Origin: Candidatus Kuenenia stuttgartensis
GTDB lineage: Bacteria > Pseudomonadota > Alphaproteobacteria > SMXS01
Direction: 5' to 3'
DNA: 64,000 nt
Assembly (NCBI GenBank): GCA_943329845.2
Contig: CALQFM020000014.1
Coordinates: 1,509 to 65,508, forward strand
Shown here: in pieces, positions 34,938-41,027 of the stretch
Layout of the letters: every line of letters begins with the position of its first letter
How positions within the stretch are numbered: the stretch's first letter is position 1
Translations under genes and position numbers: made by a program
The notes under the pieces: generated by a model
Database searches by the model: none
Seen by the model: the letters and a program-made list of their open reading frames with translations, nothing else
Told to the model about the DNA's origin: nothing

Positions 34938-35678
34938 ATGGCACAAGACTACAGAGCGCCTTACAGCGTGGGCACGGGGACTGCCGCGGAGATTGATCGC
35001 GGCCTCCGCGCACACATGCTGCATGTCTACAACTACATGGCATCGGGCGTGCTGCTTACCGGCATCGTCGCCCTGCTGGTATCCAACATGGCCGTCACCG
35101 ACGCCGGCCAGCTCACCAGTTTCGGCCAGGCGATCTACCTGTCGCCGCTGAAGTGGGCGGTGATCCTCTCGCCGCTCGCGCTGGTGATGGTGATGAGCTT
35201 CGGCCTGAACAAGCTCAGCCTCTTCGCCCTCCAGGCGACGTTCTGGGTCTATGCCGGCCTGATGGGTCTCTCGCTCAGCAGCATCTTCCTGATGTACACG
35301 GGTGAGAGCATCGCCAAGGTGTTCTTCATCTCGGCGGGCATGTTCGGCGGCCTCAGCCTGTTCGGCTACACGACCAAGAAGGATCTGGGTCCGGTCGGCA
35401 AGTTCATGTTCATGGGCCTGATCGGCATCCTGATCGCCAGCGTCGTGAACATCTTCATGGCCTCGTCCATGATGTCGTTCGTGATCTCGGTGATCGGCGT
35501 CGTCGTGTTCGCCGGCCTGACCGCCTATGACACCCAGAAGATCAAGGAACTCTACTACGCGGGCTATGGCGAGGAGCAGACCGCCAAGCTCTCGCTGATG
35601 GGCGCCTTGAGCCTGTACCTGGACTTCATCAACCTGTTCATGATGCTGCTGCGCCTGTTCGGCAACTCGCGCAACTAG
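34938..35678 (+). CDS. Bax inhibitor-1 / YccA family protein
   Basis: GYTTKKDL, TAYDTQKIK and ALSLYLDFINLF motifs. Confidence 0.93.
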   Translation: MAQDYRAPYSVGTGTAAEIDRGLRAHMLHVYNYMASGVLLTGIVALLVSNMAVTDAGQLTSFGQAIYLSPLKWAVILSPLALVMVMSFGLNKLSLFALQATFWVYAGLMGLSLSSIFLMYTGESIAKVFFISAGMFGGLSLFGYTTKKDLGPVGKFMFMGLIGILIASVVNIFMASSMMSFVISVIGVVVFAGLTAYDTQKIKELYYAGYGEEQTAKLSLMGALSLYLDFINLFMMLLRLFGNSRN

Positions 35679-35701
35679 GACGCAGGTCCATCGATACACG
35701 G

Positions 35702-35733
35702 AACGCCCGGCCCAGCGCCGGGCGTTTTCGTTT
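35702..35733 (+). terminator. Rho-independent terminator
   Basis: AACGCCCGGC-CCAGC-GCCGGGCGTT followed by TTCGTTT, between convergent genes. Confidence 0.75.
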
Positions 35734-35753
35734 GATCGGAACGAGGAGCCGCG

Positions 35754-36095
35754 TCAGTCGACGACGTTGAGCCGCTTGCGCTCGAAGAAGCGCAGCACCG
35801 TTTCCAGGTCCTGGCCGCGCTTCAGGATCTGGTTGCCTGGCGCTAGGATAGCGAAGGCGCCCTGGCGCTTGGCCCATTTGGGGCATTTGACGATGCGGTA
35901 GAGCGGCATCTCGCTGGCCCGGCGGAACACCGAGAACACGGCGCGCTCGGCGCCGTCGGCCATGGCGTAATCCCGCCATTCGCCATCGGCGACCATTTGC
36001 CCGTAAACCCGCAGGATCTGATCGAGCTCGCGCCGGTTGAAGAAGATGCTAGGCGGTGTCGCGCGGTATTCCGCGAGGCTGGTCACGTTTTGCAT
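35754..36095 (-). CDS. DUF2794 family protein
   Basis: FNRRELDQILRVYGQMVADGEWRDYA motif. Confidence 0.85.
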   Translation of the reverse strand: MQNVTSLAEYRATPPSIFFNRRELDQILRVYGQMVADGEWRDYAMADGAERAVFSVFRRASEMPLYRIVKCPKWAKRQGAFAILAPGNQILKRGQDLETVLRFFERKRLNVVD

Positions 36096-36207
36096 AGTCC
36101 AATTAAACCGTCACGTTCACAGGAATGTAAACATCAAATCTGCCGTCCGGCCGCCTCTGAAAAGCGACCAAATGACCTCGCGTTCGCCGGAACCGGAACC
36201 CAATCGC

Positions 36208-36309
36208 GCCACAATCCGCGGCGACTATCCGATTGTTGGCCTCGTCGCCCGGTCGTGTTAGTCGGATCTGTAGCCCCCAAGCCCATTCCGACTGAGACGG
36301 CCGGGCATT
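36208..36309 (+). repeat. Double-hairpin structured element, copy 1 (possible ncRNA or recombination site)
   Basis: Hairpin 36208-36240 with a bulged T, then a 20-bp stem (36247-36266/36287-36306) with loop TCTGTAGCCCCCAAGCCCAT. Shares two identical 26-bp blocks with copy 2. Confidence 0.85.
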
Positions 36310-36412
36310 CTTATGCCCGCGGCAGCCATCAACCCCAGAGTTCCACGGATCGTCCTGATCGCCGGAAGGCAGTTCCCTGTATGAAGCTGCGCCTGAATCG
36401 CGCACAGATTAA

Positions 36413-36447
36413 TAATAATTATTAGTATTTATGAGAGTAATTATTAC
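36413..36447. promoter_or_regulatory. AT-rich operator region with two TAATTATTA cores (Fur-family-box-like)
   Basis: Palindromes TAATAATTATTA (36413-36424) and GTAATTATTAC (36437-36447), cores 22 bp apart, in a very AT-rich leader. Confidence 0.45.
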
Positions 36448-36602
36448 AACAATAATCGATAGAGTATTGTGAGAAATATTTCGGTAACCTTCCAATAAAT
36501 ACTGGCGATCATGCATTTTTATTCGTTGAATCAGCCAATCAACCTCACTAATTTCTGACAGGCCAAAAATTGTTCCTACGGTCAATAAGAGGGCGGAGAA
36601 CC

Positions 36603-37961
36603 ATGGGTGTCAGGCGGGGTATTTGCTACGCGGCAGCGGTGCTGCCTGTAGCGGCAGTGGTCTACATTATCGCTGCCGGCGGTCCGGTACGGGCATTGCC
36701 AAGTTTTTCGCGGCAGACCGGCGAAGATTGCGCCGCCTGCCATGTGGGTAGTTTCGGCCCGCAGCTGACGCCGCATGGTCGGCGATTCAAGCTGGGCGGG
36801 TATACGGATGGCGACGGCAAGTTTCACGTGCCGCTCAGCGCCATGGCGGTCGGATCCTGGACCCATACGGCCGAAGACCAGGCCGGCGGGGCCGGACCGC
36901 ATGCCGGTCCCAACAACAATGCGGCGGTGGACGAGGTATCGGCTTTCCTCGCCGGCAAGATCGCCGGTCCCGTCGGTGCCTTCGTCCAGGTGACCTATGA
37001 CGGCAACGAGCACCATGTCGCCCTCGACAACGCGGATATCCGTGCGGCCTTCACCACGGAATGGGCCGGCAAGGATCTGATCCTGGGCCTGGATTTCAAC
37101 AACAATCCCACCGTGCAGGATGTGTTCAACACGACCCCGAGCTGGGGCTTTCCGTACACCTCTTCGGCGCTGGCACCCAGCGGCATGGCAGGCACCCTCA
37201 TCAATGGCGGCGCCGAGATGCAGGTGGGCGGCGCATCGGTGTATGGCTACTGGGATAACCTGATCTACGCCGAGGCGGGCGTTTACAGCAGGCTGTCGTC
37301 GGGCTTCCTGCACGATGTGGGTATCGGCCGTGAGACCGTGGTCAAGGGAACCGCGCCATACTGGCGGCTGGCGCTGACCCACGAATGGAACCGGCAGGCC
37401 GCGTCGATCGGCACGTTCGGCATGATCGCCAACGTCTATCCCGACGATCTGCATCTGTCCGGATCGGACAAATATACCGACATGGGCTTTGACGCGACCT
37501 ACCAGTGGCTGGGCACGCGCAAGGACATCATCTCGGCCAACGTCAGCTACGTGCACGAGAAGCAGAACCGGACAGGGTCCTTCGCGCTGGGCCTGGCATC
37601 CAACCCGAAGGACAGCCTGAACGAGTTCAAGGCGAACGTGTCGTGGTACCACGACAAGACCTATGGTCTGACCGCGGGCGTATTCGGCACCACGGGTTCG
37701 GCTGATCCCCTGCTCTATCCGGTCGAGGACATCGGCGGCAGTCGTCTCGGCGTGCCCGACACGCGCGGATACGTGCTCCAGGCTGACTGGACGCCGTTCG
37801 GCAAGGAAGATTCATTCCTCTCGCCCTGGGCCAACCTGCGCCTTGGCATCCAATACACCGGCTACACCAAGTTCAACGGTGCCAGCCAGAACTATGACGG
37901 TGCCGGCCGGAAGGCCTCGGACAACAACTCCGTGTTCCTGTTCAGCTGGATCGCATTCTAA
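36603..37961 (+). CDS. cyc2: Cyc2-like outer-membrane porin-cytochrome c fusion
   Basis: Signal peptide ending VRA, then LPSFSRQTGEDCAACH...PQLTPHGRRFKLGGY, which matches the Cyc2 heme-domain signature. Amphipathic beta-strand-like C-terminus ending in F. Confidence 0.8.
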   Translation: MGVRRGICYAAAVLPVAAVVYIIAAGGPVRALPSFSRQTGEDCAACHVGSFGPQLTPHGRRFKLGGYTDGDGKFHVPLSAMAVGSWTHTAEDQAGGAGPHAGPNNNAAVDEVSAFLAGKIAGPVGAFVQVTYDGNEHHVALDNADIRAAFTTEWAGKDLILGLDFNNNPTVQDVFNTTPSWGFPYTSSALAPSGMAGTLINGGAEMQVGGASVYGYWDNLIYAEAGVYSRLSSGFLHDVGIGRETVVKGTAPYWRLALTHEWNRQAASIGTFGMIANVYPDDLHLSGSDKYTDMGFDATYQWLGTRKDIISANVSYVHEKQNRTGSFALGLASNPKDSLNEFKANVSWYHDKTYGLTAGVFGTTGSADPLLYPVEDIGGSRLGVPDTRGYVLQADWTPFGKEDSFLSPWANLRLGIQYTGYTKFNGASQNYDGAGRKASDNNSVFLFSWIAF

Positions 37962-37974
37962 CTCTGGAGGTTCC

Positions 37975-38352
37975 ATGCCTGTTTCCCGCCTTGCCGCCGC
38001 CGCCATTGCCATCCTGCTTCTCGGCCCGGTGGCCGCGCGCGCCCAGAACGTGGACGATGGCGCGGATTCCTTCGACGCGAACTGTGCCGACTGCCACTCG
38101 GTCAGCAAGCAGTTGAAGAACAAGAAGGGGCCCTCGCTGTTCGGTATCGTCGGCAGGCACGCGGGAACCGTGGCCGGCCAGGAATACTCGCCCGCCAACA
38201 AGGGCTCCAATCTGGTGTGGACGCCCGACGTCCTGACCCGCTATCTCGCCAGTCCGCAGGCCCTTGTTCCCGGAACGACGATGAAGTTCAAGGGGTTGAA
38301 GGATCCGAAGGAGATCGCGGACCTGGTGGCGTTTCTGGAGCAGCAGAAGTGA
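37975..38352 (+). CDS. Periplasmic monoheme cytochrome c (c2-like)
   Basis: Signal peptide, CADCH, GPSLFGIVGR and axial Met in PGTTM. Confidence 0.92.
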   Translation: MPVSRLAAAAIAILLLGPVAARAQNVDDGADSFDANCADCHSVSKQLKNKKGPSLFGIVGRHAGTVAGQEYSPANKGSNLVWTPDVLTRYLASPQALVPGTTMKFKGLKDPKEIADLVAFLEQQK

Positions 38353-38957
38353 ACATCGATCGTCATCATCGGCTGGTGCGAAGCCTGCACTGGGTTACCT
38401 TCCTGGCGCTGATATTCGGCTATTCGCTGATCTGGTGGCGCGACGGCCTGGACGATACGGGCGATCGGAGCCGGGTGCTGGCATGGCACGCGACCGTCGG
38501 CCTTACAGTGCTGGCGTTGGCGATCGCCCGGCTGCTGAGCCGCGCCTTCGGCGACCGGCTGGTGGTGCCACACCCTCTGTCGCGCATGGAGCGTCTCGGC
38601 TCGACGGCGTCGCATGTGCTTCTCTACGTGGCGATGATCGGGATTCCCCTGCTCGGCTGGCTGACCGTCAGCGCGCGTGGCCGCCTGCCGGACCTGTTCG
38701 GGCTGGTGGCATTGCCAGGTCTGATCGCAAAGGATCGTGACCTGGCCGATTCACTTCAGCAATGGCACTATCTCGCGGCCATGGCGATGCTTGCCGTCGT
38801 CGGCGTGCATGTCTGCGGCGCGCTGTATCATCACTTCATCAAGCGCGACAATGTGCTGCGGGCCATGCTGCCGTCCTCGGTCGACCGGATGCTGGGCAAA
38901 TTGCCGCGTGGTCGCCCAGAGCACGTCCAAATCCGGCCACAATTGCCGGTAGAATAA
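38349..38957 (+). CDS. Cytochrome b561 family diheme membrane protein
   Basis: GTGA overlap with the cyt c gene; four TMs with LHW, WHATVG, QWHY and VHV...HHFIKRD histidines. Confidence 0.88.
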   Translation: MNIDRHHRLVRSLHWVTFLALIFGYSLIWWRDGLDDTGDRSRVLAWHATVGLTVLALAIARLLSRAFGDRLVVPHPLSRMERLGSTASHVLLYVAMIGIPLLGWLTVSARGRLPDLFGLVALPGLIAKDRDLADSLQQWHYLAAMAMLAVVGVHVCGALYHHFIKRDNVLRAMLPSSVDRMLGKLPRGRPEHVQIRPQLPVE

Positions 38958-39038
38958 CGATTGTTGGCCTCGTCGCCCGGTCGCGCTGAGATGGATCTGT
39001 AGCCCCCAAGCCCATTCCATCTCATGCGACCGGGCATT
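38935..39038 (+). repeat. Double-hairpin structured element, copy 2
   Basis: Same architecture as copy 1, 2728 bp downstream. 20-bp stem (38975-38995/39016-39035) with an identical 20-nt loop and compensatory stem changes. Confidence 0.85.
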
Positions 39039-39099
39039 TCATTTCCGGGCCGCGCCATTCCCCTGACAGCATCGCCCTGACACCATCGACAGATCGCGT

Positions 39100-39128
39100 C
39101 TTGATGTGGCGCAGGCAGTTTCCTATGT
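39100..39128 (+). promoter_or_regulatory. RpoH (sigma32)-type promoter of htpG
   Basis: CTTGAT-N16-CCTATGT fits the alphaproteobacterial heat-shock consensus CTTGAA-N15/16-CCTATAT. Confidence 0.65.
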
Positions 39129-39156
39129 AGCCGTTCGCCAGAACGAGGAGACGCCG

Positions 39157-41027
<1,871 letters not shown>

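What the first reader, a model, noticed from the sequence alone, without database searches (positions are those of the whole stretch)
36603..38957. Compact three-gene envelope-spanning electron conduit: Cyc2-like porin-cytochrome, periplasmic cyt c, inner-membrane cyt b561
Seen: three tightly linked genes, one for each envelope compartment. Known: Cyc2 is the fused cytochrome-porin Fe(II) oxidase of Acidithiobacillus and neutrophilic iron oxidisers; E. coli CybB (b561) passes electrons from superoxide to quinone. Inference: a portable module linking extracellular metal or mineral redox to the quinone pool, or Fe(II)/ROS detoxification, in an apparently heterotrophic alphaproteobacterium. Many Cyc2 homologs have no demonstrated function.
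Basis: partly seen in the sequence, partly recalled or inferred. Interest (0 to 1): 0.8.

Follow-up and report, generated by a model that had tools for sequence, protein, structure and literature searches.

The report
Mobile three-gene envelope redox module
A freshwater heterotroph carries a real, conserved and horizontally mobile operon with one haem protein per envelope layer (outer-membrane Cyc2-type porin-cytochrome, periplasmic cytochrome c2, inner-membrane cytochrome b561); it most likely links the quinone pool to iron chemistry at the cell surface, and I found no description of this gene combination in the searchable literature.

Summary
Three co-oriented genes sit at 36603-38957: a 452-aa Cyc2-family cytochrome-porin, a 125-aa cytochrome c2 and a 202-aa CybB-like cytochrome b561. 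The gaps between them are 13 nt and a 4-nt overlap.

The first protein has one CXXCH, the Cyc2 signature (ALPSFSRQT...CAACH...PQL) and a predicted 16-strand barrel resembling OprO/OprP. A 51%-identical relative is published as a homologue of A. ferrooxidans Cyc2.

The trio recurs in 17 of 80 species loci, which form essentially one clade. Gene order is shuffled but adjacency is kept. Other clades pair the gene with c2, HiPIP, dihaem c4 or cupredoxin.

All three genes are under purifying selection. The 2.6-kb block has lower GC3 than its neighbours and an AT-rich leader. It is absent from the same intergenic site in two close relatives, and sits between transposase remnants in another.

CybB haems are -23/+48 mV, whereas c2-type cytochromes are (from my own knowledge) at least about +250 mV. 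I favour, weakly, an outward wire from quinol to the outer-membrane haem. Fe(II) oxidation is a close rival. No function has been tested.

The parts
36200..36312 (+). Hairpin element A. It belongs to the host intergenic region and marks the left border of the inserted block.
   Evidence: 113-nt element with a ~60-nt stem-loop (z -4.5). It is present next to element B in the empty sites of L084 and L085. Compensatory pair changes occur across 10 copies.
36313..38900 (+). Inserted accessory block of about 2.6 kb: AT-rich leader plus three genes. The right border lies somewhere between 38875 and 38925.
   Evidence: Absent from the same DUF2794|htpG intergenic site in L085 (HtpG 93% identical) and L084 (89%). 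Present in L081 and L086. GC 0.61 versus 0.67-0.68 in the flanks; GC3 0.77-0.84 versus 0.90-0.93.
36380..36600 (+). AT-rich upstream or leader region, presumed to hold promoter and operator.
   Evidence: GC 0.35 in a 0.66 window. The orthologous upstream regions are also AT-rich.
36410..36424 (.). Perfect 7-1-7 palindrome TAATAATAATTATTA: a candidate Fur-type operator, 193 nt upstream of the start codon.
   Evidence: 12 of 14 matches to TGATAATnATTATCA. P ~0.006 in composition-matched simulations, and the sites here are the only ones scoring >=11/14 in the 64-kb window. Same position in L081 (12/14) and L086 (10/14); position -181 in L083 (11/14).
36603..37961 (+). Cyc2-family fused monohaem cytochrome-porin (outer membrane), 452 aa.
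   Evidence: Motif A31LPSFSRQT39, C43AACH47, P53QL55 and a single CXXCH. 16 predicted strands. OprP/OprO and general porins are the best folds. No Pfam or NCBIfam model matches. More than 4,700 homologues.
37975..38352 (+). Periplasmic monohaem class I cytochrome c (mitochondrial/c2 type), 125 aa with signal peptide.
   Evidence: PF00034. Best solved relatives are Crithidia cytochrome c, Rhodopila globiformis c2 and 1co6 cytochrome c2, at E 1e-25 to 1e-27. C37ADCH present, and ...PGTTMKF aligns with the PGTKM segment of the solved relatives, which I take to carry the Met haem ligand (my knowledge).
38349..38957 (+). Inner-membrane dihaem cytochrome b561 of the CybB type, 202 aa. The GTG start overlaps the cytochrome c stop.
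   Evidence: PF01292, E 1e-25. Matches 5OC0 at E 1e-21. H13, H87, H137, H151 and H158 equivalents are conserved. R30, R38 and R108 are kept, but R35 becomes T and K134 becomes Q.
38871..38957 (+). 28-codon C-terminal extension of b561, caused by loss of the ancestral stop. It reads into hairpin element B.
   Evidence: Relatives L081, L086 and L083 stop (TGA/TAA/TAG) directly after ...RAML. The window has CCG there.
38928..39042 (+). Hairpin element B. It belongs to the host intergenic region, lies at the right border and sits upstream of htpG.
   Evidence: 115-nt paralogue of element A. It lies directly next to A in the empty sites. A partial copy follows the module in L083.

Best explanation
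The block is a self-contained, horizontally mobile electron-transfer operon with three parts:
- a Cyc2-family monohaem cytochrome fused to a 16-strand outer-membrane porin;
- its dedicated soluble cytochrome c2 in the periplasm;
- a CybB-type dihaem cytochrome b561 in the inner membrane, which has a quinone/quinol site.

Shown here: the three architectures; their conserved adjacency in one clade of the Cyc2 family; purifying selection; presence/absence polymorphism; an AT-rich leader of foreign-looking composition.

Inferred: the three proteins form one chain between the quinone pool and a small redox-active solute, most likely iron, that reaches the haem through the porin.

Inferred from the potentials of characterised homologues: net flow through b561 runs from quinol to c2, not the reverse. 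I therefore favour an outward, reductive wire: quinol -> b561 -> c2 -> Cyc2 haem -> oxidant in or at the pore. The oxidant is most likely weakly complexed Fe(III), yielding Fe2+ that can enter through the same pore. A reactive oxygen or radical species is less likely.

In this alphaproteobacterial lineage a conserved Fur-like palindrome suggests control by iron status. In beta- and gammaproteobacteria a PmrA/QseC-like two-component system sits beside the same genes.

My probabilities: about 0.6 that the three proteins form one chain tied to the quinone pool, and about 0.4 that the physiological direction is outward.
For: Architecture.

Cyc2 membership: (with 8 and 59).

Chain:
- b561 is adjacent in 17 of 80 species loci, and every one of these also has the c2 gene. 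Three arrangements occur: b561-cyc2-c2, divergent b561, and cyc2-c2-b561.
- These loci form essentially one clade.
- c2 and b561 share a GTGA overlap.
- One metagenomic ORF reads b561 straight into Cyc2.
- dN/dS is 0.08-0.22 for all three genes.

Direction:
- E. coli CybB haems are +48 and -23 mV, its quinone site is on the cytoplasmic side, and quinol-driven reduction of the haems (the reverse reaction) is readily observed.
- The Q-site histidines H87, H151 and H158 are conserved here.
- The cytochrome c is a mitochondrial/c2-type protein. This class has Em of about +250 mV or more (own knowledge).
- Cyc2PV-1 is +208 mV.

Precedents:
- A b561 operonic with a periplasmic partner protects the outer membrane from lipid peroxidation (LcoA-BcnA).
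- Cyc2/Cyc1 isoforms are implicated in Fe(III) reduction in acidithiobacilli. The Fe(III)-reducing Acidiphilium carries family members on plasmids.

Iron control: Fur-like palindrome conserved in position.

Hosts are aerobic heterotrophs or methylotrophs, and this one is found in lake and drinking water.
Against: - Every biochemical result for the Cyc2 family is Fe(II) oxidation. No Cyc2 has been shown to reduce anything physiologically.
- Haems at +200 to +300 mV cannot reduce ferrihydrite or ferric siderophores at pH 7. They could only reduce weak Fe(III) complexes or strong oxidants.
- Keffer et al. infer a narrow pore of about 3.5 A, which suits Fe2+ better than chelated Fe(III).
- The host's bc1 complex could already reduce a c2, which would make b561 look redundant.
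- No Fe2+ importer is consistently linked to the module.
- The periplasmic face of the b561 proteins keeps much of CybB's cationic cluster in many clade members. A superoxide-oxidase role is therefore not excluded.
- The Fur-like site is a consensus match only, and the transcription start is unknown.
- The potentials are borrowed from homologues about 30-50% identical.
Confidence: 0.4

Rival explanations
1. Inward Fe(II) oxidation for detoxification or supplementary energy. Dissolved Fe2+ enters the pore and reduces the Cyc2 haem. The c2 carries the electron to a host terminal oxidase. The b561 is not an acceptor of c2 electrons. It is a co-regulated accessory: a CybB-like superoxide:quinone oxidoreductase that mops up the superoxide made when Fe(II) meets O2 in the envelope. 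In this reading every protein does what its characterised homologue does.
For: - Characterised Cyc2 proteins oxidise Fe(II).
- Across the family the neighbouring genes are the carrier types used in known Fe(II) oxidation chains: class I c (40 of 80 loci), HiPIP (10), dihaem c4 (7), cupredoxin (6).
- A cytochrome b plus class I cytochrome c cluster (Slit_1321-1324) is induced by Fe(II) in Sideroxydans.
- Q-site histidines and R30, R38 and R108 of CybB are conserved.
- A narrow pore fits Fe2+.
- A PmrA/PmrB-like regulator pair lies next to the triad in beta- and gammaproteobacteria.
Against: - It does not explain why b561 is tied so tightly to cyc2-c2 in only one clade, nor the translational coupling and the fused ORF.
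- The superoxide antenna residues R35 and K134 are lost in this lineage, and K134 is lost in all 21 triad b561 proteins examined.
- The hosts are not known iron oxidisers, and oxic lake water holds little Fe(II).
- A Fur-type repressor site would be the wrong polarity for an Fe(II) defence.
Confidence: 0.3
2. One reading: extracellular Fe(II) or mineral -> Cyc2 -> cytochrome c -> b561 -> quinone, feeding metal-derived electrons into the quinone pool.
For: - One protein per compartment and conserved synteny.
- Similar proposals exist for a b561-dihaem c fusion ('Cytbc') in a Gallionellaceae genome.
- The Q-site histidines are conserved.
Against: - The step is uphill. c2-type cytochromes are about +250 mV or higher (own knowledge) and Cyc2PV-1 is +208 mV. 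Keffer et al. place quinones at -110 to +110 mV, and CybB haems are -23/+48 mV.
- The quinone site is on the cytoplasmic side. The electron would also have to cross the membrane against the potential.
- A four-helix b561 has no known way to use proton-motive force for this.
- Heterotrophs do not need reverse electron flow.
Confidence: 0.08
3. The chain is real, but the substrate is not iron. Candidates are Cu(II)/Cu(I), Mn, superoxide or peroxide, or organic radicals at the outer membrane. That would make it a general envelope redox-defence or metal-handling device.
For: - Keffer et al. and He et al. explicitly leave other functions open for homologues in organisms that do not oxidise iron.
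- The family is abundant in nitrifiers, methanotrophs, Burkholderia and Ralstonia.
- Cytochrome c is readily reduced by superoxide (own knowledge).
- LcoA-BcnA is a precedent for outer-membrane antioxidant supply by a b561.
Against: - No copper, manganese or ROS genes are consistently linked.
- The only tested substrate in the family is Fe(II).
- The Fur-like site points to iron.
Confidence: 0.17
4. The genes are adjacent only by shared history or co-transfer and do not cooperate, or the copy in this window is decaying.
For: The b561 has lost its stop codon and gained 28 residues. The block is dispensable in close relatives.
Against: - Adjacency survives three different gene orders across three proteobacterial classes.
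- dN/dS is 0.08-0.22.
- All reading frames are intact.
- Perfect-match metatranscriptome contigs cover the 5' part of the first gene in four runs.
Confidence: 0.05

Closest known systems
Acidithiobacillus ferrooxidans Cyc2 and the rus-operon chain (Cyc2 - Cyc1 c4 - rusticyanin - aa3)
   Same: - Outer-membrane monohaem cytochrome fused to a porin, with the same N-terminal signature.
- Full-length homology by a transitive link: a 51%-identical relative is 30% identical to AfCyc2 at E 3.7e-38.
- The gene lies next to a soluble high-potential periplasmic carrier.
- The unit moves horizontally with IS elements.
   Different: - Here the carrier is a mitochondrial-type c2, not c4 or rusticyanin.
- No oxidase genes are linked.
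- A CybB-type b561 is part of the unit.
- The host is a neutrophilic freshwater heterotroph.
- Activity is untested.
Cyc2PV-1 / Cluster 1 Cyc2 of neutrophilic iron oxidisers (Mariprofundus, Gallionellaceae)
   Same: Same architecture and defining motif. Keffer et al. predicted a 16-strand barrel resembling OprO/OprP, and that is what I obtain here.
   Different: - The published homology links for close relatives of this protein are to A. ferrooxidans Cyc2. Which Cyc2 cluster it belongs to was not determined.
- The proposed inner-membrane partners there are ACIII, bc1 and cbb3, not b561.
E. coli CybB (superoxide:ubiquinone oxidoreductase, PDB 5OC0)
   Same: PF01292 four-helix dihaem fold, aligned over 172 residues at E 1e-21. 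The haem and Q-site histidines are conserved, as are R30, R38 and R108.
   Different: - Scores below the NCBIfam equivalog cut-off (79 versus 170 bits).
- Antenna residues R35 and K134 are replaced.
- It is operonic with, and translationally coupled to, a cytochrome c and a Cyc2 gene. I recall E. coli cybB as standing alone (own knowledge, not checked here).
LcoA-BcnA (cytochrome b561 plus periplasmic lipocalin) of Burkholderia cenocepacia
   Same: A b561 encoded with, and functionally tied to, a periplasmic partner that serves the outer membrane. This is the best precedent for b561 exporting reducing power.
   Different: There the partner is a quinone-binding lipocalin, not a cytochrome c, and no outer-membrane haem protein is involved.
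Slit_1321-1324 cluster of Sideroxydans lithotrophicus ES-1 (cytochrome b, class I monohaem c, dihaem c)
   Same: A cytochrome b is encoded with a class I cytochrome c. The cluster is induced by Fe(II) and conserved in iron oxidisers.
   Different: No porin or Cyc2 lies in that cluster. I could not check whether Slit_1321 is a PF01292 protein, so homology to the genes here is untested.
Porin-cytochrome complexes (MtrAB/MtoAB/PioAB), and dihaem-b quinol dehydrogenases such as Geobacter CbcL or the 'Cytbc' of Gallionellaceae KS
   Same: The concept is the same: a trans-envelope electron path with an inner-membrane b-type, quinone-reactive entry or exit point (CbcL from my own knowledge).
   Different: Those use decahaem cytochromes inside 26-strand porins, and b-c fusion proteins. 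Here there is one haem in a 16-strand fused barrel, a separate soluble c2 and a stand-alone b561.

Membership tests
Cyc2 fused cytochrome-porin (as defined by Keffer et al. 2021 / FeGenie) | N-terminal signal peptide | tested here: met
   MGVRRGICYAAAVLPVAAVVYIIAAGGPVRA|LPSF. There is a hydrophobic helix at residues 7-25 in the model. This rests on inspection only; no SignalP run was available.
Cyc2 fused cytochrome-porin (as defined by Keffer et al. 2021 / FeGenie) | Exactly one CXXCH near the N-terminus | tested here: met
   C43AACH47 is the only CXXCH; the cysteines are at positions 8, 43 and 46.
Cyc2 fused cytochrome-porin (as defined by Keffer et al. 2021 / FeGenie) | AXPXFAR[Q/K][T/Y] motif upstream of CXXCH | tested here: met
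   The window has A31-L-P-S-F-S-R-Q-T39, with one conservative deviation (A to S at the sixth position). Most aligned relatives read ALPSFARQT exactly. Three residues separate the motif from CXXCH, whereas the paper says 5. I could not see their logo to resolve how they count.
Cyc2 fused cytochrome-porin (as defined by Keffer et al. 2021 / FeGenie) | PXL motif just downstream of CXXCH | tested here: met
   P53-Q-L55 follows H47 after five residues. P53 and L55 are invariant in 26 sequences.
Cyc2 fused cytochrome-porin (as defined by Keffer et al. 2021 / FeGenie) | Length of at least 365 aa, with a 16-strand porin structurally like OprO/OprP | tested here: met
   452 aa. I count 16 strands in the AF2 secondary-structure listing, merging E246-248 with E250-262 (pLDDT 79.6). 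Foldseek: OprO 4rjw TMq 0.49, OprP 2o4v TMq 0.48, and 16-strand general porins at E ~1e-7.
Cyc2 fused cytochrome-porin (as defined by Keffer et al. 2021 / FeGenie) | Sequence homology to a biochemically characterised Cyc2 | tested here: met
   The link is transitive. P0066 (Methylovorus sp. MP688, 450 aa) is 51% identical to the window protein. A Methylovorus sp. MP688 protein of the same length is listed as 30.04% identical, E 3.7e-38, to A. ferrooxidans Cyc2 in He et al. 2017 Table S2. I could not align directly, because no AfCyc2 sequence was retrievable.
Cyc2 fused cytochrome-porin (as defined by Keffer et al. 2021 / FeGenie) | FeGenie Cyc2 HMM score and cluster (1/2/3) assignment | not testable with these tools
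   The HMMs and reference tree are not available here. The taxa in my hit lists match the 'dense cluster' linked to AfCyc2 in a published similarity network.
Cyc2 fused cytochrome-porin (as defined by Keffer et al. 2021 / FeGenie) | Fe(II) oxidase activity | not testable with these tools
   This needs biochemistry. No member of this heterotroph clade has been assayed, as far as the searched literature shows.
CybB-type cytochrome b561 / superoxide oxidase (PF01292) | PF01292 four-helix domain with the bis-His haem ligands and Q-site histidines (H87, H151, H158) | tested here: met
   PF01292, E 1e-25. Matches 5OC0 at E 1e-21. All of these histidines are conserved in the window. H13, H87, H137, H151 and H158 are also kept in nearly all of the 21 triad b561 proteins (one gap at 13, one Q at 87).
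CybB-type cytochrome b561 / superoxide oxidase (PF01292) | Orthology to E. coli CybB (NCBIfam equivalog PRK11513 cut-off) | tested here: not met
   79.4 bits against a cut-off of 170. It is a family member but not an equivalog.
CybB-type cytochrome b561 / superoxide oxidase (PF01292) | Periplasmic cationic superoxide antenna (R30, R35, R38, R108, K134) | tested here: inconclusive
   In the window R30, R38 and R108 are kept, R35 becomes T and K134 becomes Q. K134 is never basic in the 21 triad b561 proteins, while position 35 is K or R in 11 of 21.
Mitochondrial-type class I cytochrome c / c2 | PF00034 fold, CXXCH, and the PGTxM segment that carries the Met ligand in this class; close similarity to solved c2 structures | tested here: met
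   PF00034, E 4e-10. C37ADCH is present, and PGTTMKF aligns with the PGTKM segment of 2yk3 and 1hro. E values are 1e-25 to 1e-27 to 2yk3, 1hro and 1co6. The CycA c550 equivalog cut-off is not reached (96 versus 240 bits).
Porin-multihaem cytochrome complexes (MtrAB/MtoAB/PioAB) | Separate decahaem cytochrome inserted in a ~26-strand porin | tested here: not met
   There is one haem motif, fused to a 16-strand barrel, and no multihaem gene in the block.
Self-mobile element (transposon, integron cassette, genomic island with integrase) | Own recombinase, plus terminal repeats or a target-site duplication | tested here: not met
   No transposase or integrase ORF lies in 36313-38900. The flanking ~113-nt repeats pre-exist side by side in the empty sites, so they are not a duplication made by insertion. 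Mobility is inferred only from presence/absence and from IS remnants in L083 and L088.

The most novel reading that the evidence does not exclude
The b561-c2-Cyc2 triad is a portable, self-sufficient outward electron conduit used by aerobic heterotrophs for reductive iron acquisition. Quinol electrons are delivered to the haem inside an outer-membrane pore. There, weakly complexed Fe(III) is reduced, and the Fe2+ produced enters through the same pore. The system would be controlled by iron status: a Fur-like operator in this lineage and a PmrB/QseC-like metal-sensing kinase elsewhere. If so, thousands of 'Cyc2' hits in genomes of organisms that do not oxidise iron, now counted as iron-oxidation markers, would be mis-scored as to direction.
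Probability: 0.2. Interest if true: 0.8.

Novelty: new variant of a known kind. Interest (0 to 1): 0.55.

Why it matters
Cyc2 is used as the marker gene for microbial iron oxidation, for example in FeGenie. Yet the authors who defined the family say that most homologues sit in organisms not known to oxidise iron and may have other functions.

This window belongs to a well-delimited clade of those orphan homologues that always travels with a dedicated c2 and a quinone-reactive b561. That makes the question directly testable. The module is only 2.6 kb. It occurs in culturable hosts such as Methylovorus sp. MP688, Azoarcus, Nitrospirillum, Altererythrobacter and Solimonas. Close relatives that naturally lack it provide controls.

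The thermodynamic argument predicts the opposite electron direction from the one usually assumed. If that holds, metagenomic 'iron oxidation potential' based on these cyc2 hits would need re-reading. Bacteria would also gain a compact, transferable way of sending respiratory electrons to the cell surface. If Fe(II) oxidation is confirmed instead, iron oxidation would extend to common freshwater and soil heterotrophs.

Tried and rejected
- Pfam and NCBIfam have no model for the Cyc2-like protein. A profile search of PDB sequences found nothing, so no Cyc2 structure was available for comparison.
- Rfam found no family in 35600-39300. The consensus promoter/terminator scan found nothing useful.
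- I first suspected that the ~113-nt direct repeats flanking the block were a target-site duplication or an attC-like site. I rejected this because both copies lie side by side in the empty sites of close relatives, and no recombinase is present.
- The 19-bp E. coli Fur consensus gives no match at up to 3 mismatches. Only the 15-bp 7-1-7 form matches. No comparable site lies upstream of the beta- and gammaproteobacterial triads.
- I tried to decide between c2 docking and superoxide binding from the charge of the b561 periplasmic loops. The result is mixed: net charges run from -6 to +3, and position 35 is basic in about half of the sequences. I draw no conclusion from it.
- I could not retrieve a bona fide AfCyc2, Cyt572 or Cyc2PV-1 sequence for direct alignment.
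- The periplasmic domain of the neighbouring sensor kinase has a conserved acidic run (RLERDDDD..E.D). All NCBIfam matches (QseC, PmrB, heavy-metal sensors) are below cut-off, so the signal is unknown.
- Literature searches for Cyc2 together with cytochrome b561, CybB or PF01292 returned nothing that describes this triad.
- The metatranscriptome contigs cover only the 5' third of the first gene at low depth. That is too thin to show co-transcription or regulation.

Full report
**1. What is in the sequence**

Three ORFs lie head to tail on the + strand.
- 36603-37961: 452 aa, ATG behind a GGAG.
- 37975-38352: 125 aa, 13 nt after the first stop, behind GGAGG.
- 38349-38957: 202 aa. Its GTG start overlaps the preceding TGA as GTGA.

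Pfam assigns the second to PF00034 (cytochrome c) and the third to PF01292 (prokaryotic cytochrome b561). It has no family for the first, and neither does NCBIfam.

Against solved structures, the small cytochrome is a mitochondrial/c2-type class I protein. It matches Crithidia cytochrome c, Rhodopila globiformis c2 and the 1co6 cytochrome c2 at E 1e-25 to 1e-27. The membrane protein aligns over 172 residues with E. coli CybB, 5OC0, at E 1e-21.

**2. The first protein is a Cyc2-family cytochrome-porin**

Keffer et al. 2021 define the family by five features:
- a signal peptide;
- a single CXXCH;
- an AXPXFAR[Q/K][T/Y] motif just upstream of it;
- a PXL motif just downstream;
- a length of at least 365 aa and a 16-strand porin resembling OprO/OprP.

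The window protein reads ...A31LPSFSRQT39-GED-C43AACH47-VGSFG-P53QL55... and has no other CXXCH. The one deviation, Ser for Ala, is not shared by most relatives, which read ALPSFARQT.

An AlphaFold2 model built on 26 homologues (pLDDT 79.6, pTM 0.80) has 16 strands by my count behind a poorly modelled haem segment. Foldseek returns 16-strand porins. The highest query-normalised TM-scores are for OprO (4rjw, 0.49) and OprP (2o4v, 0.48). These are the two structures named for Cyc2PV-1.

I could not fetch an A. ferrooxidans Cyc2 sequence, but a transitive link exists. P0066, from Methylovorus sp. MP688 (450 aa), is 51% identical to the window protein. A Methylovorus sp. MP688 protein of the same length is listed by He et al. 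2017 as a homologue of A. ferrooxidans Cyc2, at 30% identity and E 3.7e-38. That table also lists proteins from Uliginosibacterium, a Paraburkholderia kururiensis strain, Ralstonia solanacearum CFBP2957 and Nitrosospira species, taxa that also appear among my hits.

A published similarity network ties AfCyc2 to a dense cluster from Rhodanobacteraceae, Hyphomicrobiales, Burkholderiales, Nitrosomonadales and Acidiphilium. These are the same taxa.

The family is large. More than 4,700 proteins scored in the word-indexed search. There are 3,960 clusters at 50% identity with E <= 0.001.

**3. Conservation of the triad**

In the 80 best species loci, a homologue of the c2 lies beside the Cyc2-like gene in 40. 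A homologue of the b561 does so in 17, and all 17 also have the c2.

A neighbour-joining tree puts the b561-linked genes in essentially one clade. This clade contains the window, and two Nitrospirillum sequences sit on a separate long branch.

Gene order varies:
- b561-cyc2-c2 in most, for example Methylovorus sp. MP688 and Azoarcus sp. L1K30;
- a divergent b561 in two alphaproteobacteria;
- cyc2-c2-b561 in the window and its closest relatives.

Adjacency that survives reshuffling across three proteobacterial classes is strong evidence of functional coupling. One metagenomic ORF even reads b561 straight into the Cyc2 signal peptide (P0246).

Other clades of the family pair the gene with HiPIP (10 loci), a dihaem c4 (7) or a cupredoxin (6). 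This fits earlier remarks on Bradyrhizobium and the Acetobacteraceae. The family-wide rule is therefore that the partner is a small, soluble, high-potential periplasmic carrier.

All three window genes are under purifying selection against three orthologues (dN/dS 0.08-0.22).

**4. Mobility**

The genes have GC3 of 0.77-0.84, against 0.90-0.93 for their neighbours. They are preceded by a 220-nt stretch of 35% GC.

HtpG places the host near 'Emcibacter sp. SYSU 3D8' (89%) and 'Iodidimonas sp. SYSU 1G8' (85%).

The block lies between a DUF2794 gene and htpG. The same site is:
- occupied in relatives whose HtpG is 88-89% identical (L081, L086);
- empty in a closer relative (L085, 93%) and in Emcibacter sp. 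SYSU 3D8 (L084, 89%).

The two ~113-nt repeats that flank the block lie side by side in the empty sites. They are resident structured elements, not a duplication made on insertion. The block sits in the ~50-nt spacer between them.

A further relative, 79% identical, carries the same three genes in the same order elsewhere. There the block lies between an rve-integrase fragment and an HTH_Tnp_1 fragment, with a partial copy of the right-hand repeat attached. In Azoarcus the unit abuts IS66. Family members occur on plasmids and megaplasmids of Ralstonia, Caballeronia, Polymorphobacter, Acidiphilium and Acidithiobacillus.

'Portable module' is therefore supported, although the block has no recombinase of its own. 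Roughly equal divergence of Cyc2 (86%) and HtpG (88-89%) suggests an old acquisition followed by losses.

**5. Regulation and expression**

The AT-rich leader contains a perfect palindrome, TAATAATAATTATTA, at 36410-36424. It matches the 7-1-7 Fur consensus at 12 of 14 positions. P is about 0.006 in composition-matched simulations, and the sites here are the only ones scoring >=11/14 in the window.

A related sequence sits at the same distance (-193) in L081 (12/14) and L086 (10/14), and at -181 in L083 (11/14). The surrounding sequence is barely alignable. Only one other 12/14 site exists in 750 kb of fetched loci. This is a candidate operator and nothing more.

The beta- and gammaproteobacterial triads lack it. 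At least ten of them instead follow an OmpR-family regulator and a sensor kinase whose best matches, all below cut-off, are PmrA/TctD and QseC/PmrB.

The sequence is present in many lake, river and drinking-water metagenomes. Perfect-match metatranscriptome contigs cover 36593-37194 in four freshwater runs at low depth. This is weak evidence of transcription in situ.

**6. How it probably works**

For E. coli CybB:
- the haems titrate at +48 mV (cytoplasmic side) and -23 mV (periplasmic side);
- the quinone site is on the cytoplasmic side;
- quinol-driven reduction of the haems is readily observed.

The Q-site histidines H87, H151 and H158 and the haem ligands are conserved here. Cyc2PV-1 is +208 mV, and Keffer et al. 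place quinones between -110 and +110 mV. Mitochondrial/c2-type cytochromes are about +250 mV or higher (my own knowledge).

Whatever the exact b-haem potentials, c2 to ubiquinone is uphill by 150 mV or more. It would also move an electron inward against the membrane potential. A four-helix b561 has no known energy-coupling device. If b561 and c2 interact, electrons run from quinol to c2.

The simplest scheme that uses all three proteins in one line is then outward: quinol -> b561 -> c2 -> Cyc2 haem -> an oxidant that reaches the haem through the pore. Several points support this reading:
- LcoA-BcnA is a precedent for a b561 working with a periplasmic partner that serves the outer membrane.
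- Cyc2/Cyc1 isoforms have been implicated in Fe(III) reduction, and the Fe(III)-reducing Acidiphilium carries family members.
- The Fur-like site points to control by iron status.
- The hosts are aerobic heterotrophs.

Several points count against it:
- All biochemistry on Cyc2 is Fe(II) oxidation.
- The pore is thought to be narrow.
- Haems at +200 to +300 mV can reduce only weak Fe(III) complexes or strong oxidants.
- The bc1 complex could feed c2 anyway.

The main rival keeps every protein at its homologue's known job. Cyc2 oxidises Fe2+, c2 passes the electron to a terminal oxidase, and b561 scavenges the superoxide that Fe(II) and O2 generate. The periplasmic cationic cluster of CybB is only partly kept: R35 and K134 are lost here, and K134 is lost in all triad b561 proteins. 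That neither settles nor excludes this rival.

**7. Comparison with what is known, and novelty**

The Cyc2 family, its spread among organisms that do not oxidise iron, and its frequent pairing with a c-type cytochrome are all published. The window protein is a new member of that known kind.

What I could not find described is the clade-specific three-gene unit with a CybB-type b561. Full-text searches for Cyc2 with cytochrome b561, CybB or PF01292 gave nothing relevant.

The nearest analogues are:
- a b561-dihaem c fusion proposed as a quinone-reactive partner of Mto in one Gallionellaceae genome;
- the Fe(II)-induced cytochrome b plus class I c cluster Slit_1321-1324 in Sideroxydans.

Neither contains a Cyc2 gene. 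I therefore rate the finding a new variant of a known kind, of moderate interest. It does not overturn anything. It does give a compact, transferable and naturally polymorphic handle on an acknowledged open question, namely what Cyc2 homologues do outside iron oxidisers. It also comes with a thermodynamic reason to doubt the default assumption about direction.

**8. Limits**

- No activity, potential, localisation or co-transcription has been measured.
- The link to AfCyc2 is transitive, through a published table.
- The Cyc2 cluster assignment is unknown.
- The haem domain is poorly modelled.
- The potentials are borrowed from homologues.
- The Fur-like site and the kinase's signal are conjectures.

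Noticed in passing
window 36200-36312 and 38928-39042 (also L081, L084, L085, L086): There are two paralogous ~113-nt elements in the DUF2794-htpG intergenic region. Each has a strong ~60-nt hairpin (z -4.5 to -5.9), an invariant loop CUGUAGCCCCCAAGCCCAU and compensatory stem changes between the A and B types. They are adjacent in empty sites and split by the inserted block here. No Rfam family matches. They could be tandem small RNAs, terminator-like hairpins or protein-binding sites.
   Followed up: partly
window 36410-36424 (and 36413, 36432): A perfect palindrome, TAATAATAATTATTA, resembles a Fur box (12/14). It is conserved in position upstream of the orthologous operons. It and two overlapping sites are the only ones in the 64-kb window that reach 11/14.
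   Followed up: partly
window 38871-38957: The b561 gene has CCG where three relatives have their stop codon. This adds 28 residues that are encoded partly by hairpin element B. The effect on the protein is unknown.
   Followed up: partly
protein P0246 (metagenomic, 641 aa): A single ORF joins a complete b561 to a complete Cyc2-like protein through the Cyc2 signal peptide. It could be a missed stop, or a real polyprotein that signal peptidase would split.
   Followed up: no
L088 2316-6273 (Azoarcus sp. L1K30); also L005, L008, L011, L014, L020, L045, L050, L060, L068: An OmpR-family regulator and a sensor kinase (best matches PmrA/TctD and QseC/PmrB, all below cut-off) sit beside the triad, directly upstream of b561 in L088. 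The kinase's periplasmic domain has a conserved acidic run (RLERDDDD..E.D). In Azoarcus, IS66 genes lie immediately upstream, and glycosyltransferase, GtrA and acyltransferase genes lie downstream.
   Followed up: partly
L083 4663-5361 and 8442-8660: In a relative whose Cyc2-like protein is 79% identical, the same cyc2-c2-b561 block lies in an unrelated genomic context. It sits between an rve-integrase fragment and an HTH_Tnp_1 fragment, and carries a partial copy of hairpin element B.
   Followed up: partly
L012 7243-8607 (Uliginosibacterium gangwonense): A second, divergent Cyc2-like paralogue (35% identical to the window protein) lies 2 kb downstream of the triad in the same locus.
   Followed up: no
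window 36593-36595: Perfect-match metatranscriptome contigs from two independent freshwater runs begin at 36593 and 36595, about 10 nt before the start codon. None extends into the AT-rich leader. This could be a 5' end or an assembly artefact at low depth.
   Followed up: no
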